A stretch of 64,000 nt of DNA from a virus (Duplodnaviria; Caudoviricetes): IMG/VR virus record IMGVR_UViG_3300042090_001530, positions 64,001 to 128,000 of that record; one strand, written 5' to 3'. A program made the position numbers and the translations under genes. The notes beneath the pieces were generated by a model that was not told the origin of the DNA, made no database searches, and saw nothing but the letters and a program-made list of their open reading frames with translations. This document shows positions 3,886 to 37,303 of this stretch, one piece after another. How positions within the stretch are numbered: position 1 is the stretch's first letter; each line of letters begins with the position of its first letter.

Positions 3886-3938
3886 GTCCACGATCGTGCG
3901 CCTGCGGACGGGTCGGGCGGGGGGCGTTTTGCCGACTT

Positions 3939-3962
3939 GTTACCCCGCGCGTTACCCCGTGC
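3939..3962 (+). repeat. Tandem 12-bp direct repeats, putative integrase arm-type sites (left arm)
   Basis: GTTACCCCGCGC (3939-3950) and GTTACCCCGTGC (3951-3962). Confidence 0.7.
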
Positions 3963-3972
3963 GCTGAACGAT

Positions 3973-4010
3973 CAAGGCCCCTGCTGCTTTACGGCAGCTC
4001 AGGGGCCTTG
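3973..4010 (-). terminator. Terminator hairpin downstream of the tRNA-derived att core
   Basis: CAAGGCCCCTG (3973-3983) pairs with CAGGGGCCTTG (4000-4010); inner GCTGC/GCAGC. Confidence 0.75.
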
Positions 4011-4017
4011 TCGAGAA

Positions 4018-4039
4018 GAGGTGGAGACGGGATTTGAAC
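4018..4039 (-). other. attP: attP core: copy of a tRNA 3' end (probably tRNA-Cys)
   Basis: Minus strand reads GTTCAAATCCCGTCTCCACCTC: T-loop, T-stem 3' strand, acceptor 3' strand and U discriminator. It matches my recollection of actinomycete tRNA-Cys(GCA). The sequence beyond 4039 is not tRNA-like. Confidence 0.8.
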
Positions 4040-4143
4040 TGTGGTACACCCGCACCTCTACCTGCATCTTTGCTGCTGAGACCACTATAGCAGGTGCCAC
4101 CGGTCGCAAAAACTGGCCAGAGGTCGCAAGGACCGACCTGCAC

Positions 4144-4167
4144 GTTTCCCCGCAGGACACCCCGTGC
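4144..4167 (+). repeat. Tandem 12-bp repeats, putative integrase arm-type sites (right arm)
   Basis: GTTTCCCCGCAG (4144-4155) and GACACCCCGTGC (4156-4167), similar to the 3939-3962 pair. Confidence 0.6.
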
Positions 4168-4193
4168 CGGGGGCGCCCTTCGCCGACGCCGAG

Positions 4194-4958
4194 TCAAGAA
4201 GCGCGCCCGTTGCGCCCGCGGTCCTCTTCGGCATCCGGGTCGGCCTTGCGGAGCCGGTCGGCCTCTGCGGCCTCCCGCGGGTAGCGGGCCGCGCGCAGCG
4301 CCTCGACCTCGTCCGCGCCGAGGATGCGCGCGGTGAACACCGCCTCCATCGCGGTCGGCGCGGCGGCCCCCGCGATCCACGCGGTGATCGCGGCCTCGGG
4401 GATGGTGCGCTCGCTGCGCGCGGCCACCTCGGCGGGGGTCATCCGCGCGTCGGCGAGTGCCTGCTCGAGGAACGCCGCCCACGGTGAGATGGCACGCCCG
4501 GCCCTGGCGTGCGGTGGCGCTGCGGCGGCGGCCGATCGGCGCGACCGGCCCTGGGCGTCGGCCAGGCGCAGTTCGAAATCGTGAAGGGTCTCGGCCTGCC
4601 GACGCAGGTATGACTGTTCGAGGTCGGCGCGCTGCTCGGCGGTGAGCATGCGGTCGGTGCGGATGCGCAGGAGCATCGGGTCGGTGCCCTGCTCGGTGCG
4701 GACGCTGCGGATCAGGCTGGCGGTGCCGGTCAGGCCGGCGGCGTCGAGGGCGGCGACGGCATCTCTGGCACGGACGGCGTGGGCGACGGCGATGACGGTT
4801 TCGGGGTCGGTGGGGGAGAAGGTGCCGCGGACCCAGCGGCTGATGGTTCCGGAGGGGAATCCGGTGGCGCGTTCGAGGTCGGCCTGGGTCATTTCGGCGT
4901 GGGTGAGGGCGGCGTTGAGCCATGACGCCCAAGTGGTGTTGGCGTCGGCGCGTGGCAT
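4194..4958 (-). CDS. Immunity repressor with two XRE-type HTH domains
   Basis: WASWLNAALTHAEMTQADLERATGFPSGTISRW and WAAFLEQALADARMTPAEVAARS...AAITAW; divergent from the Cro-like gene. Confidence 0.85.
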   Translation of the reverse strand: MPRADANTTWASWLNAALTHAEMTQADLERATGFPSGTISRWVRGTFSPTDPETVIAVAHAVRARDAVAALDAAGLTGTASLIRSVRTEQGTDPMLLRIRTDRMLTAEQRADLEQSYLRRQAETLHDFELRLADAQGRSRRSAAAAAPPHARAGRAISPWAAFLEQALADARMTPAEVAARSERTIPEAAITAWIAGAAAPTAMEAVFTARILGADEVEALRAARYPREAAEADRLRKADPDAEEDRGRNGRAS

Positions 4959-4988
4959 CAATCTTCAGCTTCCGGCGGGTACGGGATG

Positions 4989-5194
4989 GCTTCCTGTGCG
5001 AAGGAAGCCTATCGGTGTTCAGCCTACAGACGCCACCGTATGTCCGCCATAGGTGCCGCCAGACTTTCCGCAGCACTCGCATATGCACGCACGCCCCGGC
5101 AGGCCAGAGCACGTTTCGCCGCACCGGTTGCGCTTCCCATGCGAAGGGGGTAGCTTCCTTCATGTACGAAGGAATAGACCTTCTTGTAAGAAGG
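4989..5194. promoter_or_regulatory. Four 16-bp palindromic operators SCTTC-N6-GAAGG in the repressor/cro intergenic region
   Basis: GCTTCCTGTGCGAAGG 4989-5004; GCTTCCCATGCGAAGG 5132-5147; CCTTCATGTACGAAGG 5157-5172; CCTTCTTGTAAGAAGG 5179-5194. Confidence 0.8.
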
Positions 5195-15570: not shown

Positions 15571-16925
15571 ACGCCCCCATCGACGTGATCGACATCTTCG
15601 CCGGGCCTGGTGGATGGTCGCTGGCCTGCCGCACCCTAGGTCTTCGCGAGGTCGGGATCGAACTCGACCCGTGGGCGTGTGCGACCCGCGCCGCGGCCGG
15701 GCATCTCACCGTCCGCGCCGATGTGGCCGCGTTCCCTGTCCGGCAGCTTGCCCGCCGCGGAGAACGTCCCGCACGGCGGGGACTGATCGGCTCCCCGCCG
15801 TGCGGGACGTTCTCCGCGGCGGGCAAGGGGGAGGGCGTCGGCGACCTGCCGCTGCTACATCAGGCCCTCGACGACCTTGCTGCCGGGCGCGACCCGCGCG
15901 CTGACCTCGCTGCGGCCTGCTCGGACCCGCGGACCCCGCTAGTCGTCGAGCCGCTGCGGTACGCACTGGCGATCCAGCCCGAGTGGATCGCGCTCGAGCA
16001 GGTGCCTGCCGTGCTGCCGCTGTGGGAGCACATCGCCCGGATTCTGCGCGACCGCGGCTACTCGACGTGGACCGGGATCCTCAACGCCGCCGACTACGGG
16101 GTGCCGCAAACCCGGCGGCGCGCGATCCTGATTGCCTCCCGCGTCCGGACGGTCACACCGCCCGAGCCGACTCACGCGAAGGAAGCCGAGATCGAGACGC
16201 TGTTCGGCCCCGGCCGACGGCGATGGGTGTCCATGGCTGAAGCGCTCGGCTGGCTGCCCGCAGGTGTCGTCAACACCCGCGGAGAGCGCAAGACCCCCGG
16301 CGGCAACGAGTTCTCCGCCGACCGGCCGTCTTGGGCGCTGACCGAGAAGGCCAGGTCGTGGACGGTGCGCACGCTTTCCGGCAATGGAGACGCTCACGAC
16401 TACGAGCGGGACCTAGACGAGCCGTCGCCGTCGCTGACTTCGCGATCCGACCGGTGGCGCGTCGATGTAGGCGCAGGAGGGTTCGCCGGGGGCTGGGGAC
16501 GGAACGGAGACGAGCCGTCGCCGACGATTCGACTCCAGTCGCAGTCGTGGGTACTTAGGCACAACGACCGGGCGAACGCGACGGTGCGCCGCATTGATGA
16601 GCCCGCCGGGACTCTCGCCTTCGGCCATGCCCGGAATGAGTACTGCTGGATTCCGGGCATGGCCGAAGGCGAGAGTCCCGGCGGGCATGCCTCCGATACC
16701 CACTCCCGGTCGGAGTCGGTTCACATCACAATCGAGGAGGCTTCGGTCCTTCAGTCGTTCCCGAGCGACTACCCGTGGCAGGGCACAAAGACCCAGAAGT
16801 TCCTTCAGTGCGGCAACGCCTGGAGTCCGCGCGCCGCGATGGCCGTGATAGGTGCCGCGACGGGCATCGACTGGCAGCCGGTCGCGGCGCGCTGCTACGA
16901 CGAGGTTGCGCAGGTGGCCACATGA
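15567..16925 (+). CDS. DNA (cytosine-5) methyltransferase
   Basis: DIFAGPGG (motif I), GSPPC (IV), LEQV (VI), YGVPQTRRR (VIII), LQSFP...QCGNA (IX/X). Confidence 0.92.
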   Translation: MNAPIDVIDIFAGPGGWSLACRTLGLREVGIELDPWACATRAAAGHLTVRADVAAFPVRQLARRGERPARRGLIGSPPCGTFSAAGKGEGVGDLPLLHQALDDLAAGRDPRADLAAACSDPRTPLVVEPLRYALAIQPEWIALEQVPAVLPLWEHIARILRDRGYSTWTGILNAADYGVPQTRRRAILIASRVRTVTPPEPTHAKEAEIETLFGPGRRRWVSMAEALGWLPAGVVNTRGERKTPGGNEFSADRPSWALTEKARSWTVRTLSGNGDAHDYERDLDEPSPSLTSRSDRWRVDVGAGGFAGGWGRNGDEPSPTIRLQSQSWVLRHNDRANATVRRIDEPAGTLAFGHARNEYCWIPGMAEGESPGGHASDTHSRSESVHITIEEASVLQSFPSDYPWQGTKTQKFLQCGNAWSPRAAMAVIGAATGIDWQPVAARCYDEVAQVAT

Positions 16926-17461
16926 CGCTGTCCCACGCCACGTACTCGCGCCAGGTGAAACTCAACCTCCAAGACCCCGACGACCTGTTCGTCGACGGGA
17001 TCCACGAATACGCCGGCACAATCGCCCCGCCCGTCGACCTTCACGAGCAGAAGGTCCACCTGGTTGACGCTGAAGCGATCCGGCAGGCACTCCTCGGCCT
17101 CCCCAAGGCGCTGACCGCACTGGAACGGGGCGCAGCGCTCGTCGTCTGCGACCAGTGGGGGCTCGATCGGGAGATTGTCGGGCTCGCGCGCGAAAGCCTT
17201 GATCGGGCGATCTCCCGCGCCCGCGAGGCCGCGCCGGAACGGCTGGGGGAGCTGCTGGAGACGGCTGCCGTGGAGTCGGTGCCGCCGCTCGTCGACGCAG
17301 TCAGGGTGCGCGACGCGGGGCTGGTCGAGGAGCTTCTCGTCGACCTGGACGTCCTGCAGCTACGGGCGCTCACGGTCGTCCTCGCGGACATGCTCGCCGC
17401 CGCAGGCGCGCCACGAGATCCCGGCGCCGACGTGGCGCACCTCGACCCCGAAGACCCGTAG
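16922..17461 (+). CDS. Hypothetical protein
   Basis: ATGA-coupled ORF. Confidence 0.55.
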   Translation: MTLSHATYSRQVKLNLQDPDDLFVDGIHEYAGTIAPPVDLHEQKVHLVDAEAIRQALLGLPKALTALERGAALVVCDQWGLDREIVGLARESLDRAISRAREAAPERLGELLETAAVESVPPLVDAVRVRDAGLVEELLVDLDVLQLRALTVVLADMLAAAGAPRDPGADVAHLDPEDP

Positions 17462-17482
17462 CCAGCAGGAAGTAGCAGTCCC

Positions 17483-17920
17483 ATGCCCGTCACGCTCGCC
17501 GCGCCGCCCGGCGAATCCGAGCCCATCCCGACCGAGACCGCCCGGCCCGCCACCCTGGAGCCGAGCGAGATGCTGCAGCGCGTCATAGCGATCCAGGCCC
17601 GCGATCAGCAACTCGTCGCCGACCGCTACCTGGCACTGTTCGTCGCCGCGCTGACCGCCCGACTGGCCCGCGCCTACCGCCGCGACCGGGACAGGCTGCT
17701 GCGCGCGAACCTCGCACTGCAAGCCGACCTTGACGCGTCCGCAGTCCGCGGCCGGTTCACGGCCGCGCAGATCGACGCGCTCGCCCGGGAGGTCGTCGAG
17801 CTGCAGGCCGGGCGCCGCGACCTGACCGGGAGGAACCAGACGCTCGAGGACGAGAACGCGCGGTTACGGACGCGCCTCGAAGCCGAGACGAAGCCGGCCC
17901 GCGGCCGGTGGCGTCGGTGA
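17483..17920 (+). CDS. Coiled-coil hypothetical protein
   Basis: Heptad-rich C-terminus. Confidence 0.55.
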   Translation: MPVTLAAPPGESEPIPTETARPATLEPSEMLQRVIAIQARDQQLVADRYLALFVAALTARLARAYRRDRDRLLRANLALQADLDASAVRGRFTAAQIDALAREVVELQAGRRDLTGRNQTLEDENARLRTRLEAETKPARGRWRR

Positions 17921-18144
17921 ACGCGCGTCTCGCCCGCGCCCTGCGGGCCCTCTCACTGCTCGCCGTGTTCGCCGCCGCGTTCAACCTGGCGCTCGCCGAC
18001 GGCTGGCGCGCGCCGCTCGGCGCGACCGGCCTCGCAGTCGCGCTCGCCACAGTCGCCGACTGGGTGCAGCGGCCCGACCAGGCGCCCGAAGAGCCGGAAG
18101 ACCTCCCTGAACCGGAAGACGCGCAACCCGCGCGCCAGCCCTAA
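17917..18144 (+). CDS. Small two-TM membrane protein
   Basis: Two hydrophobic segments. Confidence 0.55.
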   Translation: MNARLARALRALSLLAVFAAAFNLALADGWRAPLGATGLAVALATVADWVQRPDQAPEEPEDLPEPEDAQPARQP

Positions 18145-18165
18145 CCAGAAACGGACACCCTCGCC

Positions 18166-18612
18166 ATGACCACGAACGACGTACTCCTCCCGACCGCCGA
18201 CCCGGCCAAGGCGCTCCTCGCCGAACTCACCGGGCCCGCCACAATCGAGCAGTTGCTCGGGCGGGCCGAGCGCAACGGCACCAAGCGGGCCCGGCTCGTC
18301 GCTGCAAGGATCCGGCACGACGCCGATCTCCTCGAGCAGCTGCTCGCGCAGCATGGCGAAGAGGCCGTGGCGCGCCGGAAGGTCGACCGGCTGCGCGCCC
18401 AGCTCAAGGCGGCCGAAGCCGAACTGCGCGCGAAGACCGACCCGGAGCGCAACATCGCCCGACTCGCCGGCCCCAACCAGCCGGCACCGGCCGCGACCAC
18501 CAAGGTCATGCGCGCCTGGCTGATCGAGCAGGGGCACGAAGTCTCGGACCGCCGGCGCCTGACCGCCGCACAGATCGGGCAGTACGAGGCCGCGCACCGG
18601 GGCGCCGAATGA
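18166..18612 (+). CDS. Coiled-coil protein with C-terminal Lsr2 DNA-binding domain
   Basis: MRAWLIEQGHEVSDRRRLTAAQIGQYEAAH resembles the Lsr2 C-terminal IR.WA...G..VSDRGRI. Confidence 0.8.
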   Translation: MTTNDVLLPTADPAKALLAELTGPATIEQLLGRAERNGTKRARLVAARIRHDADLLEQLLAQHGEEAVARRKVDRLRAQLKAAEAELRAKTDPERNIARLAGPNQPAPAATTKVMRAWLIEQGHEVSDRRRLTAAQIGQYEAAHRGAE

Positions 18613-19184
18613 CCACCACCTTCGATCCCGGCGACGGCCGCGACTACCTCGCCGAGATGAGCGCGCTCATCGATGGCGCGCTGCCCGACGGCGAATACAT
18701 CGCGCCCCTCGTCGCGCACGACCTGATCGAGAAGCTCAGGGCCAACGACGGCGAGCTCCTCGCCGGATGGCTCAACATGCGGGCCGAGGTCACTATGACC
18801 GCCTACATCTCGGATCGGATCAAGAACCGTCGCCAGTCGAGTCGGGAGTCTGCCGCCCGGTCCACGTTCGGCGAGGCTGCTGAGCGGTTCGCGGTGGGCG
18901 GCGACGGTGCCACGATGCGCGCCGCAGTACTGACGCGGCCGTTCGATGCCGAGTACGTCGTGAACTGTGAACTGCTGCGACGCAGGGTTGCGGAGATGAC
19001 TGGAGCCGACCACATCTTCGTCGCCAAGGAGTACGCCGAGACGAAGCAGACGGCGAGGCTCCTGGAGTCCTTCCATCGCGCGGTCGCCAAGAAAGTCGGC
19101 GACCAGAAGACGAAGGACGTTTTCACCGAGGGCCAGTACGTCGAGATGTACCGGTCGATCACCCGCCGCGAGTTGGCGGTCTAA
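18609..19184 (+). CDS. Helical hypothetical protein immediately upstream of the repeat array; candidate accessory subunit
   Basis: 191-aa coupled ORF; its stop is 7 bp before the array. Confidence 0.7.
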   Translation: MTTTFDPGDGRDYLAEMSALIDGALPDGEYIAPLVAHDLIEKLRANDGELLAGWLNMRAEVTMTAYISDRIKNRRQSSRESAARSTFGEAAERFAVGGDGATMRAAVLTRPFDAEYVVNCELLRRRVAEMTGADHIFVAKEYAETKQTARLLESFHRAVAKKVGDQKTKDVFTEGQYVEMYRSITRRELAV

Positions 19185-19191
19185 GCGCGCA

Positions 19192-19754
19192 TGACAACCC
19201 TCACCGAATCACTTCAGCGCGCCGACTACCCGAGCCATCTCCTTGCCAACGCTGTCCTTCCCTTGCCGACGACCCATTTCTACGCAGTGCAGCCCCACGC
19301 AGTGCCATCCGACCCCCGTCGACGAGTCGCCCCTGGCCGACATGTCTCCGCCCAGCGCTGCCCCTACCGACTGCCCAGCGCATCGCGTCCCGTGCCATTT
19401 CGGCTCGTCCTGCTCCTGCCCCGCGCGCACCGACTTCCCAGCCCCGCGCGCCTCGTCGCACTCCAGCCCGCATCGACCACCCGGCCCACCTCACCGTGTC
19501 GCGCCCTGCCCCCTTCCATTCCCTGCCGACAACCCAACTCCCATCGCGCATGCCGTCCCGCCGCCTACCGACTACTCAGCCCACCGAGGCTCACGTCACC
19601 CCTCTTCGACTACACAAGCCCGCACCGCACTCCCCGAACCCTCGCGACTACCCATCCCGGCCCCGAACGTGCCTTCGCACCCCCACCTGGCCCTCGCTGA
19701 CTACCCAGCCCCCGACAGGCCGACAACTCCACATCCCTCACCACGTGACGAACC
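19192..19754 (+). ncRNA. Periodic repeat array, putative guide-RNA locus: units GAC-NN-(CNC-NN)n
   Basis: YGAC heads at 19192, 19223, 19267, 19320, 19368, 19431, 19474, 19527, 19569, 19607, 19645, 19698, 19721, 19746. Most spacings are 5n+3. Each unit parses into conserved C-rich triplets alternating with variable dinucleotides. Transcribed strand not established. Confidence 0.8.
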
Positions 19755-19767
19755 GAAAGGCTCTGAC

Positions 19768-20442
19768 ATGACCTCCGTCTTCGCCAAGCACATCCCCCAG
19801 GCGTGGCCCCACCGCTACAGCGGCACGCTGCACATCGTCACCCTCGCGGGCGGCACTCCCAGCGACCCCAATGTCGCCGAAGGCTGGCTCCGCACGAAGC
19901 TCGCCGACAAGAACGACCTCATCCGCGACGCTGTCGCCGAGGTCATGGTTGAGCGCGGCATCACCGCAGAGGAAGCCGCGAAGGAACTCGACCGGCTCAA
20001 GCACTTGAACGGCTTCAAGAAGGACCCTGAGCGTGGCGGAGAGCTCTACATCGAAGGCCGGCAACTCAAAGCCGGAATTAAGGAGGCGGCGTCCGTCGCG
20101 CGCGCGGTTGGGAAGCTCCCGGACCGCTGGGGCCTGACGAAGAAGGGCATCGTCAACTTCGTTGCCGAGCACATCCAGGTCGTTGAAGACCGGCTGCACC
20201 TCGGAGTCACCGAACCCAGCGACGTGCTTCAGTCCTTCCCAAAGAACGCGCGCACCGGGCAAACCGGAATCCAATACACCGAGATCATCCTGGACGCGAA
20301 GCTCGACTTCACGATCATCAGCGACTACAAGTTCAGCGACGACGAGTGGGCGATGCTCTGGCTCACGGCTGAGCAGCAGGGCATCGGCGCGTCCCGCTCG
20401 CAGGGCTTCGGTCGATACGAGGTCGTCAGGTGGGATTCGTGA
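19768..20442 (+). CDS. Solitary Cas7/RAMP-superfamily protein (224 aa)
   Basis: RBS GAAAGG then ATG 19768; LYIEGRQLKAGIKEAA segment; C-terminal glycine-rich loop GIGASRSQGFGRYEV, the RAMP hallmark. Confidence 0.8.
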   Translation: MTSVFAKHIPQAWPHRYSGTLHIVTLAGGTPSDPNVAEGWLRTKLADKNDLIRDAVAEVMVERGITAEEAAKELDRLKHLNGFKKDPERGGELYIEGRQLKAGIKEAASVARAVGKLPDRWGLTKKGIVNFVAEHIQVVEDRLHLGVTEPSDVLQSFPKNARTGQTGIQYTEIILDAKLDFTIISDYKFSDDEWAMLWLTAEQQGIGASRSQGFGRYEVVRWDS

Positions 20443-20948
20443 CCACCCCGCAGGGCGCGGAGAGGCGCCCGGGGGGCCTAGGCGTCCCCGCCCGCGTCCG
20501 CCTCTCGCGCACCAAAGGCTTCCGGCTCCAGCAGTACGCGCCCGGCGCCATCGTCGTGCGTCGCCCCACGCGTTGGGGCAACCCGTTCACGGTTGCCGAC
20601 GCGCTCGCCGACGACCCGGCACTCACGGCGGCCCAGGCGCGGCAACGCTGCGCCGAGTTCTTCGACTTGTGGCTCGACGGGGAGATCGAACTCAGCGACC
20701 CGGCACTGGCCGAGCGCCGAGCCTGGATCCTCGAGCACATCCAGGAACTCGAAGGTCACCCGCTCGCCTGCACATGCCCCGAGGCCGTGCCAGGCGAGCC
20801 TGACTGGTGCCATGCCGTCAGCCTGATCCGCCGAAGCAACCCGCCGCAGCCGGTCGGCGAGTGCGGTGACGGCCTGTTCGCGGCCCCCGTCCGGCTGCGG
20901 CACGTCGTGCCCGTGAAGCTGCGGCGGGACGGGGCGGCGCGCCTATGA
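20439..20948 (+). CDS. DUF4326 protein
   Basis: RPTRWGNPF...L.G..LACTC....CHA. Confidence 0.85.
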   Translation: MTTPQGAERRPGGLGVPARVRLSRTKGFRLQQYAPGAIVVRRPTRWGNPFTVADALADDPALTAAQARQRCAEFFDLWLDGEIELSDPALAERRAWILEHIQELEGHPLACTCPEAVPGEPDWCHAVSLIRRSNPPQPVGECGDGLFAAPVRLRHVVPVKLRRDGAARL

Positions 20949-21145
20949 CCACCACGAAATGCCGCGACTGCCATCGCCCGATCACGGATCCGGCCTCAAG
21001 GGAACGCGGGCGGGGATCCCAGTGCTGGCAGGACCACCTCGCCACGCTCGGGACCGTGCCAGTCAAGACGCTCGGGCGCGGACGCCGCGATTGGGCCGCG
21101 GTCATGCCCGGCCAGGAGGAGCTTCAGCTCGAGGTGGCGCCGTGA
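20945..21145 (+). CDS. DUF6011-like zinc-binding protein
   Basis: CRDCHRPITDPASRERGRGSQC. Confidence 0.7.
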   Translation: MTTTKCRDCHRPITDPASRERGRGSQCWQDHLATLGTVPVKTLGRGRRDWAAVMPGQEELQLEVAP

Positions 21146-21375
21146 GCATCTGCGATCACTCGGGGCTAGATGAGACCTTTTGCGATCACTGCCGGAATGC
21201 GGGCAAGCCCCGCCAGTCCGTCATGACCGCGCGCATCCCCGGACGGATCGAGGCCCGCTATCGAGGGGTCTGCAGAGGATGCGGACTGCCGTTTACCCCG
21301 GGGACTTTGCTCACGCCCTCGGACACGGACGGCTGGATCGCGGAGTGCTGCGCGCCTGAGGATGGCGACTGCTGA
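21142..21375 (+). CDS. Small Cys-rich protein
   Basis: CDH..CDHC, CRGC, ECC. Confidence 0.55.
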   Translation: MSICDHSGLDETFCDHCRNAGKPRQSVMTARIPGRIEARYRGVCRGCGLPFTPGTLLTPSDTDGWIAECCAPEDGDC

Positions 21376-21572
21376 TGCCCCACGCCGCCCTCACCCTGCG
21401 CGACCGCTGCCCGAAATGCGGCGGCCTGCTCGCCGTGGCCCCGCGCGGATGCAGCGCCGACGACGACCACGTGCAGTGCGAATACAAGTGCCCCGATCCG
21501 GACTGCCAGCACGAGTGGATCGTCCGATGGGGACTCGGCGTACTCGACCACGGGCTGGACGGTGCCGCGTGA
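21375..21572 (+). CDS. Small zinc-ribbon protein
   Basis: CPKC...CP.PDC.HEW. Confidence 0.55.
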   Translation: MPHAALTLRDRCPKCGGLLAVAPRGCSADDDHVQCEYKCPDPDCQHEWIVRWGLGVLDHGLDGAA

Positions 21573-23582: not shown

Positions 23583-26043
23583 ACACCACCCAGTCCGCGA
23601 GTTACGAGGACATCGCCGCCTACGAGGCGAAGCGTCAGGCGATCCGCGCCCACTACACACCGCTGCTGAAGTCGATGTCCACGAGCGACCCCGGATACGG
23701 GCGCCTGTGGGATGAGCGGGCCGAGAAGCTGCGGGCGCTCGCCGACGAGTACGTGCTGCCGGCCGGTGTCGAAGAGCAGCCGGCGGTGACCCGATGACCA
23801 CGGTCGAGCGCTACACCCCCGACGACCTCGCTTGGTACGCCGAGACCTACGGCGACACCGAGTGGATGGTCCACGTGACCGGCATGGACGACTGCCACCT
23901 GCGCGTCAATCCGGAGCTCGGCGACGACGATCCGGCGAACCCGCTGCTGACCGAGGAGTCGGCGGCGAAGCTCGCGGAGGACTTCAACGGCTTCGACGCG
24001 TACTACGCCCAGAAGTTCCCGGGCGAGGAGACGCCGGGGATCCACGCGACGGTCTTCCACCACGGCGTGCCGGTGGACGTCGCGACCGCCGAGGCGGTGT
24101 CCGGTGAGTGAGCCCCTGACCTCCGAGCGCCGCGAGGAGATCCGCGCCGCCCTCGAACCGCTGCCGCCCTACCCGTGGCGCTGGGGTTCCGCCTGGAAGC
24201 TGGAGGCCGGCGGCACGCGTCCGCGCCCGGTGCTCACGACCGGCATCACGTCCGACGCCCCCGAGTTCCTGTTCCTGGCCTTCGAGGAGTCCGGCGACGA
24301 CGAGGGCTGGTACCTGCGCTCCGCCGAGGAGATCGCCGAACTGGGCCGCACCAATCCCGTCGCCGACTGGATCGAGAACGGCGCCCAGTACGCCGAGGAG
24401 CTGCTGCTCGCGGTCGACCGGCTCACCCGCGAACTCAAGACCGCGCACGCCGTACGGATCCCCACCGACACCCTGCGACCGCTGATCGACCCCAACAGGC
24501 ACACCCGGGAGCGCGCCGCGGCCTACCTCGAGGCCAACGGGTTCAAGCCGACCGAGGCCGTCGACATCTGGGAGCGCAAGGACACCTGCGACCTGATGCT
24601 GCTGCCCGGCCCCGACATCGACTGGGCCGACTCGGTGCCCTATTTCGTGCGGAACATGGCCGACGCGCTCGGCACGGGTGAACTCGGCGTGCTCGCCGGG
24701 ATCGCGGCCAGCGGAATGGATGGTGCCCGGTGAGTACGACGCGCATCACGATCAGCGGCGACGGCGGCCAGATCACGGACATCGTCGCGATCGACGGCCC
24801 TGGCCCCACCTGGACGTACAGCGATGTCGACGGAGACGGCGCGGCCATGTACACCGCCGTGATTCCCGAGGTCGGCGCAGGCGTCTACCTGCGTACTGCG
24901 GCGCGCGGTTGTTCGATCGCCGCCGCTGATGTCGAGGACTTCATCGCCGCGATCCGCGCGACCGTCGCAGCCGCATCTGAGGCGGTGGCAGAGTGACCAC
25001 GCTGACGCCCTGCCCGCACCTGGACGTCCTTGCCGACGTGGACGATATCCGCGCGAACTGCGAGATCTTCCATGGCGTCCCGCTCGCCGCGACCGGCGAC
25101 GACGGCGAGGAAGGACTGATGGCCCTCGGCCACCACGAGCCGCGCCGGATCCTCGCGGCGCTGCTCGCCTACTGCCGTGATCGTGGCATGGACCTGTCCG
25201 ACATCGGCGTGTCGAACCCGGCCGCACCGCAAGCCCGGCTGCTCGTCGAGCGAGCGCAGCGGTGGACGGTGTTCTACCAGCACGCCGACGCCGAAACCGC
25301 CGACGAGGACTGGCGCGAGGACGGCTGGTGCTCGTGCGAGGACTACCTGTGGTGGCCGCTCGACGTGCGCCAGGGCGCCCCGAATGCTGTCGCGACGATG
25401 TTCTGGAGGTTCTGATGATCACAGGCCTGTTGAACGCGGAGACGCCCGCCGACTGGCTGGTCTTCTCGCACGAGCACTCCGCCTGGTGGAAGCCCGCACG
25501 CCGCGGCTACACGGACCGCACCTCGCAGGCAGGCCTGTACGCGGAGGCCGAGGCGCGGGAGATCTGCGAGAACGCCGCCTGGCGCTGGCATCGCGGCGCC
25601 GGTGGCCCGAAGGCCCTGCCGCCAGAGGTGATGGTGCGCGCGGATGCCGACGACAAGTACGCCGCGATCCTCGAAGCCACGCGGATTGCGATCGAAGGCC
25701 GGAGCACGGTCGCCACGACGCCCGAAGCGCCGATCCGGCTCGAGGTCACGCTGCGGAAGGCGGAGGGCCGATGAGCAACACCACCACCCGCGAAGGCGTC
25801 TGCGCCAAATGCAGCCAACACCGTCCCCTGTTCAAAATCGCTTTCGATCCGTCCCCGCGCAACGAGGAAGGCGCCGCGCTGGTGTGCGCCCGCTGCTACT
25901 CCGAAGGAGAGCAGCTGAAGGAGACGGTGCCGCAGGAGATGTGCTTCTGGCTGCCGCCGCGTCCCCACGGCTGGAGTCCGTGGATCCCGAAGCAGCTCGA
26001 CCACCACCGCGAGCGACCGACCGTCGAGGAAGGTGCCCGATGA
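23579..26043 (+). other. Run of eight translationally coupled small hypothetical genes (23579-23797, 23794-24111, 24104-24733, 24730-24996, 24993-25415, 25415-25774, 25771-26043 plus overlaps)
   Basis: GTGA/ATGA/TGATG overlaps; phage-like composition; no recognisable family. Confidence 0.55.
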
Positions 26044-26663
26044 CCCCCGATGCTTTCGCCGCGCTCGGCGCCCGCCTGCTGCTCGTCCAGCGCTTCCACT
26101 TCCCGATGCAGGCCGTGGTGGCGCTGTCGGACGAGGATGCGATCACCGTTGCTTCCGCCTGGTCGGCGGCGGTGAGCGCCGCCGACCAGGCGGCCGACTG
26201 CCTCGCTGGGGGTGCGCCCTGCCGCACGGAAGTCCACGACGGCGCCTACGCGCGCAACGCATCCGGCGACCGAGGCCACGCCGACAACCGCGACCGGCAG
26301 ATGGGGTTCCAGCAAACCGCCGGGCACACAAGCGATCTCGGGCGCTGGCCGACCAACGTGATACTCAGCCACGGCGAACAGTGTACGGACGCGTGCGCGC
26401 CGAGCTGCCCAGTCGCCGAACTGGATCGCCAGTCCGGCATGCTCGCCTCGGGCGCGAACCCGACCCGACGCGGTTCGGACAAATTCCAGGCAACCTACGG
26501 CGAGTTCGAGGGCGACCGCGAATGCACCCCGGCGCGCGGTGCCGACTCGGGTGGCGCGAGCAGGTTCTTTCCGACGTTCCGCTACGAAGCGAAGGCGTCG
26601 TCGTCCGAACGCCCCAGGCTCGCCGACGGCACACAGTGGCCCACGGTTAAGCCGATCGAGCTC

Positions 26664-27983
26664 TTGACCTCCTCCACCCGCCTGAAGGCGGGGGATTCCT
26701 CACTTCGCAGCGAGGGTTTCCTGCTTCAGCGCCGACTGCCCGCCGGGACGAGTCCCTTGAGGTCTTACATCGGCTCCACAGGCGTCCACCGCGAGCCCCG
26801 CGGCGGTCAGAAGGTTCCGTGCGGCGTTGACGTCGCGGTCGTGGACCGCACCGCACGCGCAGACCCATTCGCGGACGTGCAGCGGCATCTTCTCGGCAAG
26901 CGCCCCGCAGCCCGAGCACATCTTGCTCGACGGGAACCAGCGGTCGATCACGACCAGGCCCCGGCCGTGCCAGGCGCACTTGTACTCCAGCATGCGGCGC
27001 AGCTCGGACCAGGACGCATCCGAGATCGCGCGGGCGAGACTGTGGTTCTTGACCATGTTGGACACGGCCAGGTCCTCGATCACGATCGCTTGGTTCTCGC
27101 GAACGAGCCGAGTCGTCAACTGGTGCAGGTGGTCGCGGCGCCGGTCGCCGATCCGGGCGTGCACGCGCGCGACCTTCACCCTGGCCTTGTCTCGGTTCGC
27201 CGAGCCGGGCTGCTTGCGCGCCAGGTTCCGCTGGGCCTTGGCCAGCTTCTCCCGGTCGCGCTTCTCGTGCTTGGAGTTGCCGATCTTCTCGCCGTTGGAC
27301 AGCGTGGCCAGCGACGTCAGGCCTACGTCGATGCCGACCGCGCGGTTCGCCGCGGCGGGCAGCGCCTCGATCACGTCGTCGCACAGCATCGACACGAACC
27401 AGCGGCCCGCACTGTCGCGCGACACGGTCACGGTCGTCGGCTCCACGCCCGCAGGCAGCGGACGCGACCAGACGATGTCCAGCGGCTCGCGCATCTTCGC
27501 GAGCGTCAACTGCCCGTCCCGGTACCGGAACCCGGATCGGGTGTACTCGGCCGAGAGCTTCGACTTCTTCCGCGATTTGAACTTCGGGTGCCGGGCGCGT
27601 TTGGCGAAGAAGTTCGAGTACGCCGTGTCCAGGTGCCGCAGGGCCTGCTGCAGCGGGACGCACGAGACCTCGGCGAGGAACGCGGTCTCGTCGGTGCGCT
27701 TCCACTCCGTCAGGCGTCCGGAGCAGGCCGCGTAGCCCAGGCGCGTCCCGTCGAGCTTCCATGCTTCGGAGCGCTCGTGCAGGGCCTTGTTGTACACGAA
27801 CCGGACGCAGCCGAAGGTGCGGCTCAACTCCTGAGCCTGCTCTCCGGTGGGGTAGAAGCGGAACTTGAATGCCCGCTTGACCTGCTGCGACATGCTTCAC
27901 ATTCTATCAGATCACTTATGTTCGAGGGGGGAGCGGCGTTTCCTCCCCCGCGTGAACGCGAGGGTATCCACGCCGCGAATCCG
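26664..27983 (-). mobile_element. IS200/IS605-family TnpB-only element (IS1341-like), 1320 bp, TAM TCAT
   Basis: Right end GAAT-CCCCCGCC-TTCA-GGCGGG...GTCAA; left end GATA-CCCTCGCG-TTCA-CGCGGGG. Left guide GATA predicts the TAM TC.T, and TCAT flanks the end. Removing the element restores ...E-L-M-R-W. Confidence 0.9.
26700..27893 (-). CDS. tnpB: TnpB RNA-guided endonuclease
   Basis: AFKFRFYPT HTH; RuvC GIDVG / VIEDL / HDRDVNAA; zinc finger CSGC...CACG. Confidence 0.95.
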   Translation of the reverse strand: MSQQVKRAFKFRFYPTGEQAQELSRTFGCVRFVYNKALHERSEAWKLDGTRLGYAACSGRLTEWKRTDETAFLAEVSCVPLQQALRHLDTAYSNFFAKRARHPKFKSRKKSKLSAEYTRSGFRYRDGQLTLAKMREPLDIVWSRPLPAGVEPTTVTVSRDSAGRWFVSMLCDDVIEALPAAANRAVGIDVGLTSLATLSNGEKIGNSKHEKRDREKLAKAQRNLARKQPGSANRDKARVKVARVHARIGDRRRDHLHQLTTRLVRENQAIVIEDLAVSNMVKNHSLARAISDASWSELRRMLEYKCAWHGRGLVVIDRWFPSSKMCSGCGALAEKMPLHVREWVCACGAVHDRDVNAARNLLTAAGLAVDACGADVRPQGTRPGGQSALKQETLAAK

Positions 27984-28183
27984 ATGAGATGGCTACTGCG
28001 CCTCGTCACGCCCCCAGGCGGAACGATCTTGGATCCCTTCTGCGGAACGGGCACTACGGGCGAAGCCGCGATCTTGGAAGGGTTCCGCTGCATCCTGATC
28101 GAGAAGGATCCCGTGGCGGCCGATCTCGCCGTGACGCGCCTGTCCAAGCCGCTACAGCCGTCGCTGTTCGGGGACGTGGCCTG

Positions 28184-28585
28184 ATGAGCCTCGACTCGAA
28201 CATCGACCTCTCCGCCGCAGTCGACGCGCTCGTCATCGAAGCCGTCACCGACGACGAACGCGGACTCGCCACCACCGCCGTCCTCAAGATCGCGGCACGC
28301 GACCGGCCCGACCTCACCGAGAAGCACGACATCGAACAGCACGCGCTGCCCATGCTCGCCGCCCTCGGCCTCATTGACCCGCTCGCACCGATCCCCGGAC
28401 TGCCCGACGCCGTCACACACCTGACCGCAGGCAAGCACGTCAAACAGTCCGGCGCCACCACGCACGGCACCGAAGCCGGATACCGGTGGCACGTCCAACG
28501 GCGGTCGCGGTTGTGCTCGCCATGCCAGGCGTGGGGACGCGACAACCAGGCCGACACCGCACACGCAATCCAGAAAGAGGCCTGA
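28184..28585 (+). CDS. Phage protein with a C-terminal HGT..GY..H...C..C zinc motif
   Basis: THGTEAGYRWH...LCSPC. Confidence 0.65.
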   Translation: MSLDSNIDLSAAVDALVIEAVTDDERGLATTAVLKIAARDRPDLTEKHDIEQHALPMLAALGLIDPLAPIPGLPDAVTHLTAGKHVKQSGATTHGTEAGYRWHVQRRSRLCSPCQAWGRDNQADTAHAIQKEA

Positions 28586-34499: not shown

Positions 34500-36794
34500 C
34501 CGCGCCGCTCGAGCTGCGTGCGCCCGCCGACCGGCTGACTCTCGCGGGGCGCCTGCGTCGCCTTGCCGGGCACGCGCAGGCGGTGGCGGACGCGGGCGGC
34601 GCGGCGGAGTCCGGGTTCGCGGCGGCCGTGTTGGGCCAGCTCACTCCGGCCGTGGAGGACGCGGAGGTTCAGGCGCTCGATGTCGAGATGTTGCGCGCTC
34701 AGGCCGCTGACCGTGAGCGTGCGCGCGGCGGTCTGCAGGCGGTACGGCACGATCTCCGATTCCTGCTCGATCTGGTCGACGGCTTGGATTCGGAGACGGT
34801 CCGGAAACCGTGGCTGGTTGAGCGTTTGGCGGCCACGATCGGGCGCCTCGATGAATCTATGAATACGAAAGGAAAGAAGGCGACTGATGAATGATCCGAT
34901 TCGCGACCGGGCCGGGCGTGTGCTCGGGGGCCGGGCCCTGGCGGCCCGCGCCCGGCTGCTCGAGACGCTGTTCTACCTGTATTTCGAGGAGCTCGAGGAC
35001 GCGCTGGTCGTATTGGCGTCTCGCACTGCTGATGCGGGCGGCGAGTTCTCGGAGCATATGCAGGCGATTCTCGATCTGCTCACGATCGAGGGTTGGAAAC
35101 TTCCCGAGTTCCCTACTGAAACCGAGGAGGCTGTTGATGCCTGACGAGGCGACCACGGCCCGGCCTGCGCGCCGGGTGACGTTGGTGCAGACCGGCTACC
35201 TGACGGCGCGCACCGGCGGCTGGTACGACTTCCACGCCCGGGCGGACGGCGGCGAGACGTGGTCGGTCCCGGAGTTCGCGGTGGACGAGGCGTCGGTGTG
35301 CGACGCCCCGCCGGAGACGTTGACGGCGGACGACTGGTCGGAGATCTGCGGGACACTCGCCGCATGCTTGGGGAAGGAGCGGATGCGGGCGCTGGTCGCC
35401 AGGTTCGAGACGGCGGTCGAGGAGGAGCAGCGTCCCGTGGCCACTGAGGCGACGGCCACGGCGCCGCCGGACCGCGAGCGCGACAACGTGTTCGCGCATC
35501 TGCTCGGCGAGTTGGAGAACGCGAAAGCGCGGCTGAGCATTGCCCGCGACGTCCTGGTCAAGGACGGCTATTTCACGGCCGACGAGGTGGGCGACGACAT
35601 CGCGCCGCGCTTGGGCGAGTGGCTTTCGCACCATCGCGCCCGCACGGAGTCCGCCGAGGCTCTCGTCGCACGGGTGCGTGAGGTCGCCGGCTCGTGGGAC
35701 GCCTACCGGTATGTCGCGATGGAGCGCGGGCTCGATGCGGACCCGGCGCACGCGGTCCGCAAGGCGGCGTTCCGGGAGGCGCGTGACGCGCTGACCGTGG
35801 TGCTGGGCGGCGCGACGACCGGCGGCACGGCGGTCGAACGGTGATGCCACGTGCCCTTCCGCTGTTCCTCGACACTGCGGCCGTGGGCCTGACCGTCGAG
35901 TATGCCGCCCGTTTCCATCGGCACGCCGCGGCCGTGAACCTCGCGCTGGCGTCGCTCGTGCTTGTCGTCTTCGTCGCCGCGATCCTCGCGCACTACGCCG
36001 AGCGGTGCGTACGCAACTTCGAGGCCTCGCACCCGGACGTGACCGGCGGGCTGCGCGCAGAGCCGCCGGAGCTTGACGGCGACGAACTCTGGTGCCGGAT
36101 CCTCGAGCGCTCCGCGACTGTCCCGGACATGCCGCGCGACGAGTTGATCCCGTGGCTCGTCGAGCACTCCGACACTCGGGTCGCCTTTCCCCACGACTTC
36201 GACCCAAGGACCCCGGCAGATGAATGACGACCTGCGCGCCCGGATTCTCGAGGCGCTCGTTACAGCACCTTGCGCGGAAGGCCGCGACATTCCGGGAGAC
36301 GCCGCACGGTACGCGTCCAAGCCGCATCTGCGGCACGACCGGCACCACTTCCATGCGTTCTGCGCGCTGTGCAGCGGCGAGGCCGACACGCTCGCCGACG
36401 CGGTCATGGCCGTGCTCGACCAGTACGCGCGCCTGGTTCCGACATGTTCCGAATGCGGCGGCCGACCGAAGCGCGGCCTGGTCCAGTCCGAGGACGACCA
36501 GACGTGGCAGTGCGAAGGCTGCTATCGCGACCTCGCCGACGGTGGCGCCCGATGACCATCGCCCACCTGTACGGCCTGTCCGGCACCTGCCTGCTCGGCA
36601 CCATCACCGTTCCCGGCGGCTGGCTGTGCGGTATCGACCGATGCCACGACTGCACGGACTGCCTCCACTGCCAGGCCGGCGACGAGTGTCCCGCAGGCGA
36701 CCATCGCAGGGTCGTGCACGGCTTCCAGCTCGAGCAGTTCCTCGCTGACCACAGCGGGGCCGCAGTCCTACTTCGAGCCGGGGCGGCCCAGTGA
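34496..36794 (+). other. Six coupled hypothetical genes (34496-34894, 34887-35144, 35137-35844, 35844-36227, 36220-36555, 36552-36794)
   Basis: Overlapping start/stop codons; some Cys-rich, one membrane-associated. Confidence 0.55.
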
Positions 36795-36865
36795 CCGCGA
36801 AACGCTTCAGCCACCTGATGCCGCGCGGGTGCTCCGTCCTTCAGGGCGGGGGTGAAGCGCGACGC

Positions 36866-37282
36866 TTAAACGGGCCTGTTCTGCTGCTCGATGTACTGGC
36901 GCAGCACACTGATCGGCGCACCGCCGACGGACCCGGCGAAGTACGAGCCGGACCACAGCCGCTGCGCCCGCCAGTAGTGCCGAACGAGGTCGGGAAACTC
37001 CTGGCGCATCCGCCGCGAGGAGACGCCCTTGAGCGAGTTCACGAGTTTGGAGATCGCGACCTTCGGCGGGAAGTCGACCAGCAGGTGGACGTGGTTGTCC
37101 TCGCCGTTGAACTCGACCAGTTCGCACTCGAAGTCGGCGCACACGTCCCGCATGATCTCCTCCATGCGCCGCAGGTGCCGGTCCTGGAACACGGAATGCC
37201 GATACTTGGTCACGAAAACCAAGTGTGCGTGCAGCGCGAAAACACAGTGCCTGCCAGTGCGGATCTCGTCATACGAAGCCAT
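36866..37282 (-). CDS. tnpA: IS200-type Y1 HUH transposase
   Basis: HLVFVTKYR, DNHVHLL (HUH), LWSGSYF, YIEQQ. Confidence 0.95.
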   Translation of the reverse strand: MASYDEIRTGRHCVFALHAHLVFVTKYRHSVFQDRHLRRMEEIMRDVCADFECELVEFNGEDNHVHLLVDFPPKVAISKLVNSLKGVSSRRMRQEFPDLVRHYWRAQRLWSGSYFAGSVGGAPISVLRQYIEQQNRPV

Positions 37283-37303
37283 GAAACCAAGTATGATGGA
37301 AGA

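What the first reader, a model, noticed from the sequence alone, without database searches (positions are those of the whole stretch)
19192..20442. Phage-encoded solitary Cas7/RAMP protein with an adjacent 5-nt-periodic array: candidate non-CRISPR RNA-guided system
Seen: a 224-aa gene ending in the RAMP glycine-rich loop (GIGASRSQGFGRYEV), with no cas1/2/3/5/6/8 and no CRISPR array in the window. Its RBS follows directly after a ~560-bp non-coding, strictly patterned array. Established: Cas7 RAMPs polymerise along guide RNA with a fixed nucleotide step per subunit. Inference: the array is transcribed into about 11-13 guide RNAs coated by this protein, each subunit gripping one conserved triplet and presenting a variable dinucleotide to a target. 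That would give programmable silencing of rival phages/elements or host genes without a nuclease. From memory (not checkable here), this resembles recently reported VIPR-type RAMP + GGY/NN repeat systems, but the scaffold here differs.
Basis: partly seen in the sequence, partly recalled or inferred. Interest (0 to 1): 0.95.

Follow-up and report, generated by a model that had tools for sequence, protein, structure and literature searches.

The report
Actinophage VIPR system, non-canonical guide array
A roughly 200 kb phage of high-GC bacteria carries a VIPR system, a CRISPR-related RNA-guided DNA silencer first published in 2026, made of a lone Cas7-like protein and 13 short guide units; the kind is known, but this clade's repeat motif, strand polarity and accessory gene differ from the characterised examples.

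Summary
Window 19193-19760 is a non-coding, C-rich (49% C) array with a strict 5-nt rhythm. It abuts the ribosome-binding site of a 224-aa gene (19768-20442) whose high-confidence model is a Cas7/Csm3-type RAMP. The best AlphaFold DB matches are exactly the five seed proteins of the published VIPR family (bioRxiv 10.64898/2026.04.26.720920), and the G-loop aligns with that of SUSP1 Vipr (PDB 36pp).

So this is a VIPR system, not a new class. This scan has already noted VIPR systems in at least 40 other genomes.

What is distinctive:
- **Clade:** it belongs to a large, mostly actinophage clade. In 45 of 53 related loci an array lies beside the gene.
- **Architecture:** the order is helical gene X, then array, then vipr, with X present in 37 loci.
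- **Repeat:** the unit is c-C-C/NN on the coding strand, or GGg/NN on the other strand. Units are GAC-headed and 5n+3 nt long.
- **Polarity:** this is opposite to SUSP1, where the G-rich strand is the coding strand.
- **Protein:** the two G-loop residues that read guanine in SUSP1 (D177, W178) are replaced; the mapping of H17 and R138 is tentative.

I favour the C-rich sense strand as the guide (about 0.65). No natural target was found, and strand-specific RNA data are lacking.

The parts
18609..19184 (+). Gene X (191 aa): conserved helical partner gene upstream of the array; candidate accessory (vap-like) protein of no known family
   Evidence: tblastn finds it upstream of the array in 37 related loci, in the order X - array - vipr. 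AF2 gives pLDDT 86, all-helical with a 50-residue helix. No Pfam or PHROG hit and no fold match. GC3 is 0.87.
19193..19760 (+). vrRNA-type array: 13 head-to-tail GAC-headed units of pentamers [c-C-C][N-N]. Written on the + strand, which is my favoured RNA strand; the complement reads [G-G-g][N-N]
   Evidence: Lag-5 periodicity and 49% C; phase blocks; unit table. The family logo from 331 junctions in 25 loci is cCC NN CCC NN nCC|GAC TA|CCC NN cCC NN, and unit spacing is mostly 5n+3. Non-coding by codon-position GC.
19193..19223 (+). Unit 1 (31 nt); shared with the closest relative L015
   Evidence: The two differences from L015 both lie at the first triplet position; all six NN are identical.
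19268..19310 (+). Unit 3 (43 nt; 8 pentamers + 3)
   Evidence: Together with the start of unit 4 (in-phase block from 19270) it supplied the 10-NN guide used for the IMG/VR target scan.
19369..19431 (+). Unit 5 (63 nt; 12 pentamers + 3), the longest guide
   Evidence: Used for target scans.
19570..19607 (+). Unit 9 (38 nt); orthologous to a unit of L015
   Evidence: There are six differences from L015, all at triplet positions 1-2. All seven NN and every third-position C are identical.
19755..19760 (+). Ribosome-binding site GAAAGG of vipr, directly after the last unit
   Evidence: Sequence.
19768..20442 (+). vipr: 224-aa Cas7-like RAMP (Vipr family)
   Evidence: AF2 pLDDT 93. AFDB top hits are A0A2D6XG06 (E 3.4e-14, TM 0.69), A0A1F4YLN4, X1U2U4, A0A0F9A1L0 and A0A661D0E2. 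PDB matches are Csm3/Cas7 at Z 12.6. There are 1384 homologs, all unnamed.
20380..20418 (+). Coding region of the glycine-rich loop (G205-Y217, GIGASRSQGFGRY)
   Evidence: hhalign against SUSP1 Vipr aligns it with GVGDWRPRFGRF: D177->A208, W178->S209, R179=R210. The profile also matches the Csm4 G-loop GLGGKRSSGFGRFEL. G207 and R210 are invariant in 75 homologs.

Best explanation
This is a VIPR (Viral Interference Programmable Repeat) system in the early region of a roughly 200 kb actinophage.

Shown here: the gene at 19768-20442 is a Vipr-family Cas7-like RAMP. The 570-bp array in front of it is a non-coding, 5-nt-periodic guide array of 13 units. The pairing of gene and array, together with helical gene X, is conserved across a large phage clade.

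Inferred by homology to SUSP1 VIPR: the array is transcribed. One Vipr protomer binds each pentamer, sequestering the fixed triplet and exposing the two variable bases. Each in-phase run of 6-12 pentamers becomes one ribonucleoprotein filament. The 3-nt phase break at every 'CC|GAC TA|CCC' junction delimits neighbouring guides. The exposed NN dinucleotides then read double-stranded DNA of a competing phage, satellite or prophage with one target base skipped per repeat, and binding silences transcription without a nuclease.

Inferred from context (about 0.65): in this clade the guide is the C-rich sense strand, made as part of the X-array-vipr transcript. The fixed triplet would then be c-C-C rather than G-G-Y. 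Of the SUSP1 residues that read guanine, the two in the G-loop are replaced.
For: **Fold and family.** AF2 pLDDT is 93. The top AFDB clusters are the five VIPR seeds listed in 10.64898/2026.04.26.720920. Csm3/Cas7 match at Z 12.6 and E 4.5e-8. hhalign to SUSP1 Vipr (PDB 36pp) gives E 1e-3 with the G-loops aligned.

**Array.** Lag-5 periodicity, one invariant C per pentamer, a family logo from 331 junctions and 5n+3 spacing, and no coding signal.

**Association.** 45 of 53 related loci have a C-rich periodic array beside the gene. X precedes the array in 37. The same system with the same CGACTACCC junction lies downstream of the gene in Microcystis phage Mae-JY09, at 34% protein identity.

**Hypervariability with conserved flanks.** The window and L015 (96% identical Vipr) share only 2-3 units. 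Contigs assembled from RNA-library runs of a relative of L020 keep X and vipr but replace the whole array.

**Register.** In the two best orthologous units of the window and L015, all 8 differences fall at triplet positions 1-2. None falls in NN or the invariant C (hypergeometric 9e-5).

**Sense strand.**
- The array fills the whole gap between two co-directional conserved genes.
- No sigma-70-like promoter or terminator is found on either strand in 16500-21500.
- Downstream arrays are also C-rich on the coding strand (L001, L028, L046, L052, L054).
- The inverted third array of L054 sits upstream of inverted genes.
- SUSP1 arrays are co-directional with vipr.

**Viral context.** The record is an IMG/VR virus, CheckV 98% complete, with a tape-measure gene. 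The window holds an integrase, methylases, DnaB and a replication initiator.
Against: - No strand-specific RNA evidence exists. No RNA run holding the window itself was listed.
- The complement of the array reads G(87%)-G(63-78%)-g(54-62%)-N-N. This is close to canonical GGY/NN and to the 'NNNGG' variants the paper mentions. It also puts the conserved part at the 3' end, as in SUSP1 vrRNAs. The G-rich antisense strand therefore remains a serious option.
- The many loci share one ancestral architecture, so co-orientation is supported by only a handful of independent rearrangements.
- No target was found under any skip rule.
- Across 25 conserved segments from other loci, NN positions are only slightly more conserved than triplet positions 1-2 (19% against 24% mismatches, p = 0.07).
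- The mapping of SUSP1 H17 and R138 onto this protein rests on a low-probability alignment or a manual one (hhalign probability 21%).
Confidence: 0.85

Rival explanations
1. Same VIPR system, but the functional guides are the G-rich antisense strand (GGg/NN, each unit ending ...GGCTG GGTAG TC). They would be transcribed against the direction of X and vipr. This would be a degenerate form of the canonical GGY/NN code, of the published 'NNNGG' or staggered-array type.
For: The minus-strand logo is G-G-g-N-N, with the last two pentamers of many units being perfect GGY/NN (GGCTG, GGTAG). Every experimentally characterised vrRNA has GG in the fixed triplet, and these guanines are read by the protein. 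In this reading the conserved part lies at the 3' end, as in SUSP1. The paper lists NNNGG, YNNNG and NNNNG variants and staggered arrays.
Against: An antisense promoter would have to lie inside the conserved 5' end of vipr, or downstream of arrays that follow the gene. None was detected. Orientation tracks the local genes in the independent rearrangements seen. The SUSP1 residues D177 and W178 that contact G1 and G2 are A208 and S209 here.
Confidence: 0.3
2. The RNP targets RNA rather than DNA, like the type III and type VII Cas7 backbones that are its closest solved structures. It might use the nearly invariant Asp33 in the beta1-alpha1 loop.
For: The best PDB matches are Csm3 and type VII Cas7, which are RNA-targeting backbones. 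D33 is nearly invariant among close homologs. From memory only, Csm3 has its catalytic Asp in the equivalent loop.
Against: The nearest relatives by fold are Vipr proteins. The only characterised members bind dsDNA and silence transcription. Residue equivalence with the Csm3 catalytic Asp was not tested. No nuclease or signalling partner lies in the locus.
Confidence: 0.1
3. The array is not a guide array. It could be a translated proline-rich protein or N-terminal extension, or a cis-acting DNA or 5'-UTR element such as iterons or a Rho-loading C-rich leader that regulates vipr.
For: Open frames do cross it (19191-19700, and 19243-20442 in frame with vipr). A 49% C, G-poor untranslated leader would resemble a Rho utilisation site (general knowledge).
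Against: There is no codon-position GC signal and no lag-3 periodicity. The array is replaced wholesale between close relatives while the flanks stay conserved. It can lie upstream or downstream of the gene. The 5-nt register with one protein-sized step per unit matches a published RNP architecture.
Confidence: 0.04

Closest known systems
Type II VIPR of Escherichia phage SUSP1 (Vipr, PDB 36pp; vap1; four vrRNAs). bioRxiv 10.64898/2026.04.26.720920, 10.64898/2026.04.26.720927 and 10.64898/2026.10.15.759431
   Same: Both have a lone Cas7-like RAMP in a phage, with no cas genes or CRISPR array in the locus. Both have an adjacent non-coding array with a strict 5-nt rhythm of fixed triplet plus variable NN. 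The G-loops are homologous, with R179 equivalent to R210. Both carry one small accessory gene in the operon.
   Different: - SUSP1 repeats are GGY/NN on the coding strand. Here the coding strand reads ccC/NN, with only the third C near-invariant.
- SUSP1 vrRNAs are about 100 nt with 9-16 repeats and a structured 3' tail of about 40 nt. Here units are 23-63 nt, abut head to tail, and are separated only by a 3-nt phase break at a GAC head.
- The guanine-contacting residues D177 and W178 are Ala and Ser here. H17 and R138 also appear not to be conserved, but that mapping is tentative.
- Gene X lies upstream of the array and has no detectable similarity to anything known.
- Protein identity is too low for BLAST (hhalign E 1e-3).
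Non-canonical VIPR arrays: 'NNNGG, YNNNG, NNNNG' repeats and 'staggered arrays' (10.64898/2026.04.26.720920), and 21 clusters with GAC/NN, CAC/NN, WGT/NN or TGH/NN repeats (10.64898/2026.10.21.760802)
   Same: Both have degenerate fixed triplets, arrays of tail-less abutting guides whose register shifts between neighbours, and a Vipr-like fold next door.
   Different: I could not see the figures or tables, so I cannot tell whether this actinophage clade is among them. A ccC/NN motif on the coding strand, the GAC-TA head, the 5n+3 unit rule and gene X are not mentioned in the text I could read.
Csm3 / type III-A Cas7 and type VII Cas7 backbone subunits
   Same: Both have the RRM core with a glycine-rich loop before the last strand. 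VIA gives Z 12.6, rmsd 3.2-3.8 A over 150-165 residues. Both polymerise along a guide at a fixed step.
   Different: These Cas7 proteins step 6 nt along a contiguous spacer, work in a multi-subunit effector with Cas10 or Cas14, target RNA, and depend on CRISPR arrays and Cas6 processing. None of that is present here.

Membership tests
VIPR system (Vipr + vrRNA) | Vipr protein: minimal single-RRM RAMP with G-loop and thumb, related to the published Vipr seeds | tested here: met
   AF2 pLDDT is 93. All five published seed accessions are among the top nine AFDB cluster hits, best E 3.4e-14 and TM 0.69. The G-loop aligns with SUSP1 Vipr.
VIPR system (Vipr + vrRNA) | Adjacent non-coding tandem pentanucleotide repeats (fixed triplet / variable NN), at least 4 units | tested here: met
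   There are 13 units, about 107 pentamers and lag-5 periodicity. The same holds in 45 of 53 homologous loci.
VIPR system (Vipr + vrRNA) | Canonical GGY/NN motif on the vrRNA strand | tested here: not met
   The coding strand reads c-C-C-N-N. The complement reads G-G-g-N-N, with only about 30% pyrimidine at the third position. The papers allow 'a related consensus', so this marks a non-canonical variant and does not exclude membership.
VIPR system (Vipr + vrRNA) | Minimal locus in a virus or provirus: no other cas genes or CRISPR array, one accessory (vap) gene | tested here: met
   The record is an IMG/VR virus with a tape-measure gene. The window has no CRISPR-like array. Partner gene X is conserved. 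Whether X equals one of vap1-6 could not be tested. A solo Cas1-like gene lies 94 kb away and is absent from five other vipr-bearing viral records.
VIPR system (Vipr + vrRNA) | vrRNAs are expressed and co-purify with Vipr | not testable with these tools
   No RNA run was listed for the window. Contigs assembled from RNA-library runs of a relative span X-array-vipr but give no strand, and DNA carry-over cannot be excluded.
VIPR system (Vipr + vrRNA) | NN dinucleotides match natural DNA targets under the 1-nt-skip rule | tested here: inconclusive
   There was no enrichment over shuffled guides in 0.53 Mb of related phage DNA. Two 10-NN guides had no exact IMG/VR hit. The 12-NN guide had no hit at up to 3 mismatches in 201 genomes of one actinomycete genus. 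Guides are short and the host is unknown, so power was low.
CRISPR-Cas type III / VII (Cas7 backbone) | Cas7 encoded with Cas10/Cas5/Cas11 or Cas14 and a CRISPR array; 6-nt step on a contiguous spacer | tested here: not met
   The window has no CRISPR array. Neighbours are gene X, an Lsr2-like gene and a DUF4326 gene. The array period is 5 nt.

The most novel reading that the evidence does not exclude
In this actinophage clade the VIPR scaffold has been re-coded. The guide would be the C-rich sense strand, excised from the X-array-vipr messenger. Vipr would grip c-C-C triplets instead of G-G-Y, with the two G-loop guanine-reading residues of SUSP1 replaced. A 5' GAC-TA head with a 3-nt phase break, rather than a structured 3' tail, would set guide boundaries. 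That would show that the fixed triplet of the non-contiguous code is evolvable and orthogonal between clades, giving mutually non-interfering VIPR scaffolds.
Probability: 0.55. Interest if true: 0.6.

Novelty: new variant of a known kind. Interest (0 to 1): 0.5.

Why it matters
VIPR was described only in 2026, and experiments cover GGY/NN systems of Proteobacteria phages. This locus represents a large, unnamed clade: 1384 homologs, or 466 clusters at 50% identity. Members occur in phages and prophages of Streptomyces and other actinomycetes, and in a published Microcystis phage.

Its guide grammar and polarity differ, and it has its own conserved partner protein. If the C-rich strand is the guide, this would be a second, orthogonal protein-RNA recognition code for the same non-contiguous DNA-reading mechanism. 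That would be useful for understanding how the triplet is read and for multiplexed tools. It would also add RNA-guided inter-phage warfare to Streptomyces phage biology.

If the G-rich strand is the guide, it is simply one more member, with an unusual antisense layout.

Tried and rejected
- **RNA evidence.** No RNA holder was listed for the window. For relative L020, four root-metatranscriptome runs held contigs spanning X-array-vipr. Contigs give no strand and DNA carry-over cannot be excluded, so I use them only to show array replacement between conserved flanks.
- **Local target search.** Guides from the window, and 207 guides from 25 arrays, were tested against 0.53 Mb (own genome plus related loci, arrays masked) under skip 0, 1, 2 and 3. 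Results were indistinguishable from shuffled guides. The only perfect hits were unmasked self or orthologous arrays.
- **Wider target search.** Exact IMG/VR scans of two 10-NN guides gave 0 hits. The 12-NN guide at up to 3 mismatches gave 0 hits in L006's genome and in 201 genomes of its genus. One call failed (101).
- **X with Vipr.** Complex prediction gave no verdict (score 0.02).
- **Fold of X.** There was no significant match in AFDB clusters or the PDB, and the protein-atlas hits were unnamed viral clusters.
- **Sequence searches.** Pfam and PHROGs gave no hit for Vipr or X. A single-sequence PDB search gave nothing.
- **Repeat finders.** Tandem Repeats Finder does not see the array, because the phase shifts and variable NN defeat it.
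- **Positional conservation.** Across all similar segments the tally is dominated by chance matches centred on the junction. The stricter set gives only p = 0.07.
- **Hairpins in L054.** The hairpins beside its arrays gave contradictory hints about strand and were not used.
- **Cas1 link.** A tie between the solo Cas1 and VIPR was rejected. It lies 94 kb away beside a TnpB gene and is absent from five other vipr-bearing viral records.

Full report
**What is in the sequence.** Window 19768-20442 (+) encodes a 224-aa protein ending in GIGASRSQGFGRYEV. Its GAAAGG ribosome-binding site lies at 19755-19760. The 575 bases before it, back to the stop of the upstream gene at 19184, are 49% C. Their self-identity peaks at lags 5, 10, 15, 20 and 25 (0.40 against about 0.30), with no lag-3 signal. 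A phase-tracking model finds one near-invariant C every five bases, in blocks that change register.

GC content by codon position is flat (0.65-0.72) in all three frames. The flanking genes show GC2 of 0.42-0.55 and GC3 of 0.86-0.89. The open frames 19191-19700 and 19243-20442 are therefore high-GC artefacts, and the refutation condition 'a translated, conserved protein' is not met. No Rfam family matches.

**The protein.** It has no Pfam, PHROG or PDB sequence match. It does have 1384 unnamed homologs, falling into 466 clusters at 50% identity. A model built with 75 homologs has pLDDT 93. Solved Csm3 and type VII Cas7 subunits match at Foldseek E 4.5e-8 and VIA Z 12.6, over 150-165 residues.

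Against AlphaFold DB clusters, the top hits are A0A2D6XG06 (E 3.4e-14, TM 0.69), A0A1F4YLN4 and X1U2U4, with A0A0F9A1L0 and A0A661D0E2 at ranks 8 and 9. These are exactly the five proteins from which the VIPR family was defined (bioRxiv 10.64898/2026.04.26.720920).

I located the SUSP1 VIPR locus in KT454805. Its 195-aa protein is PDB 36pp, 'SUSP1 Vipr protein'. A profile of my family aligns to it at E 1e-3 with the G-loops in register.

**The literature.** VIPR systems (Vipr protein, vap accessory gene, vrRNAs made of GGY/NN pentamers) were reported in 2026. One protomer binds each repeat and sequesters GGY. The NN bases read dsDNA with one base skipped per repeat, and binding silences competing phages and satellites. 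The papers also mention NNNGG, YNNNG and NNNNG repeats, staggered arrays of abutting guides, and clusters with other fixed triplets. Earlier notes of this scan record VIPR systems in at least 40 other genomes.

**The clade.** I fetched 53 related loci, plus Microcystis phage Mae-JY09 at 34% identity.
- 45 of 53 have a C-rich (41-55% C), 5-nt-periodic array directly beside the gene, on its coding strand.
- Four of the remaining eight are cut at the contig end just upstream of the gene.
- Arrays run from 0.3 to 1.9 kb.
- The upstream gene X (window 18609-19184) is present in 37 loci, always in the order X - array - vipr. The downstream DUF4326 gene is not conserved.
- X is predicted all-helical (pLDDT 86) and has no fold match.

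**Grammar.** A logo from 331 junctions in 25 loci reads cCC NN CCC NN nCC | GAC TA | CCC NN cCC NN. Within the triplet, the third C is 84-89% conserved, the second 63-78% and the first 54-62%. Distances between successive GAC heads are mostly 5n+3, with 33, 38, 43, 48 and 53 nt the commonest. Each head therefore introduces a 3-nt phase break. The window has 13 such units, 9 of them 5n+3 long.

Arrays are hypervariable. The window and L015 (96% identical Vipr) share only two or three units. In contigs assembled from RNA-library runs of a relative of L020, X and vipr are kept but the array is replaced outright, 814 nt for 596.

In the two best orthologous units of the window and L015, all eight differences lie at triplet positions 1-2. 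None lies in the 26 NN positions or the invariant C (hypergeometric 9e-5). This is what selection on NN specificity predicts. Across 25 conserved segments from other loci the trend is weak: 19% against 24% mismatches, p = 0.07.

**Which strand?** In SUSP1 the GGY/NN repeats lie on the vipr coding strand. Here the coding strand is the C-rich one. For the sense strand:
- The array fills the whole space between two conserved co-directional genes, leaving no room for an antisense promoter.
- None was detected on either strand.
- Arrays that lie downstream of the gene are also C-rich on the coding strand.
- L054 has a third, inverted array sitting upstream of inverted genes.
- SUSP1's guanine-contacting D177 and W178 are A208 and S209 here, while R179 is the invariant R210. 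H17 and R138 also appear not to be conserved, but on weaker alignment.

For the antisense strand:
- It reads GGg/NN, close to the canonical motif.
- It places the conserved part at the 3' end, as in SUSP1.

I put the sense strand at about 0.65. Only strand-specific RNA data or binding assays can settle this.

**Targets and partner.** No natural target emerged from the local, IMG/VR or 201-genome searches. Guides carry only 12-24 specified bases and the host is unknown, so this says little either way. The complex prediction of X with Vipr gave no verdict.

**Context.** The window is part of a 202,490-bp IMG/VR virus record, CheckV 98% complete, with a tape-measure gene. The window itself holds an integrase, PD-(D/E)XK nuclease, methylases, a replication initiator and DnaB. 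'Phage-encoded' therefore holds.

**Verdict.** This is a genuine VIPR system. It is a known kind, but it represents a large actinophage clade with a non-canonical repeat, tail-less GAC-headed units, probably reversed polarity, and its own accessory gene.

Noticed in passing
Outside the window: G000:C1:177909-179108 (-), read as L062:9910-11106: The same phage record encodes a 398-aa solo Cas1-like protein (Pfam Cas_Cas1, E 6e-15, above cut-off). It lies next to a TnpB/IS605 OrfB gene, with no Cas2 or CRISPR array seen. It was absent from five other vipr-bearing viral records, so it is probably unrelated to the VIPR locus.
   Followed up: partly
window 18166-18612 (+): The gene directly upstream of X has a weak Lsr2 DNA-binding domain match at its C-terminus (E 6e-5, below the Pfam cut-off). 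This is a phage Lsr2-like protein next to the VIPR operon.
   Followed up: no
window 54705-56513 (+): The phage encodes a 602-aa protein with an RNB (RNase II/R) exoribonuclease domain plus a weak dsRNA-binding motif. A 3'-5' exonuclease could in principle trim guide precursors, but no link was tested.
   Followed up: no
L001 (Microcystis phage Mae-JY09, PP395641.1) 3920-5115: This published phage genome has an unannotated copy of the system at its right end. A 'hypothetical protein' 34% identical to this Vipr is followed by a 400-nt C-rich pentamer array with the same CGACTACCC junctions, then a strong hairpin.
   Followed up: partly
L054 5830-6723 and 4914-5778: One relative has three arrays: upstream of vipr, downstream of vipr, and an inverted one. 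The inverted array lies upstream of a minus-strand operon that includes an HNH-endonuclease-like gene.
   Followed up: partly
L006 2536-2585 / L021 2286-2335; L017 2545 / L055 2301 / L021 2201: Single guide units are nearly identical between loci whose arrays otherwise differ. This resembles shared CRISPR spacers and suggests common targets or exchange of units.
   Followed up: no
window 19864-19866 (codon of Asp33 of Vipr): A nearly invariant Asp sits in the loop after the first beta strand (GGTPSDP). From memory, Csm3 has its RNA-cleaving Asp in the equivalent loop. Residue equivalence was not checked.
   Followed up: no
window 25644-28184 (+) and 26700-27893 (-); 36791-38536 (+): An 846-aa open frame matches DNA methyltransferases only in its last 60 residues and contains a well-coded 397-aa minus-strand gene. 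A separate 581-aa transposase (phrog_506) lies at 36791-38536.
   Followed up: no
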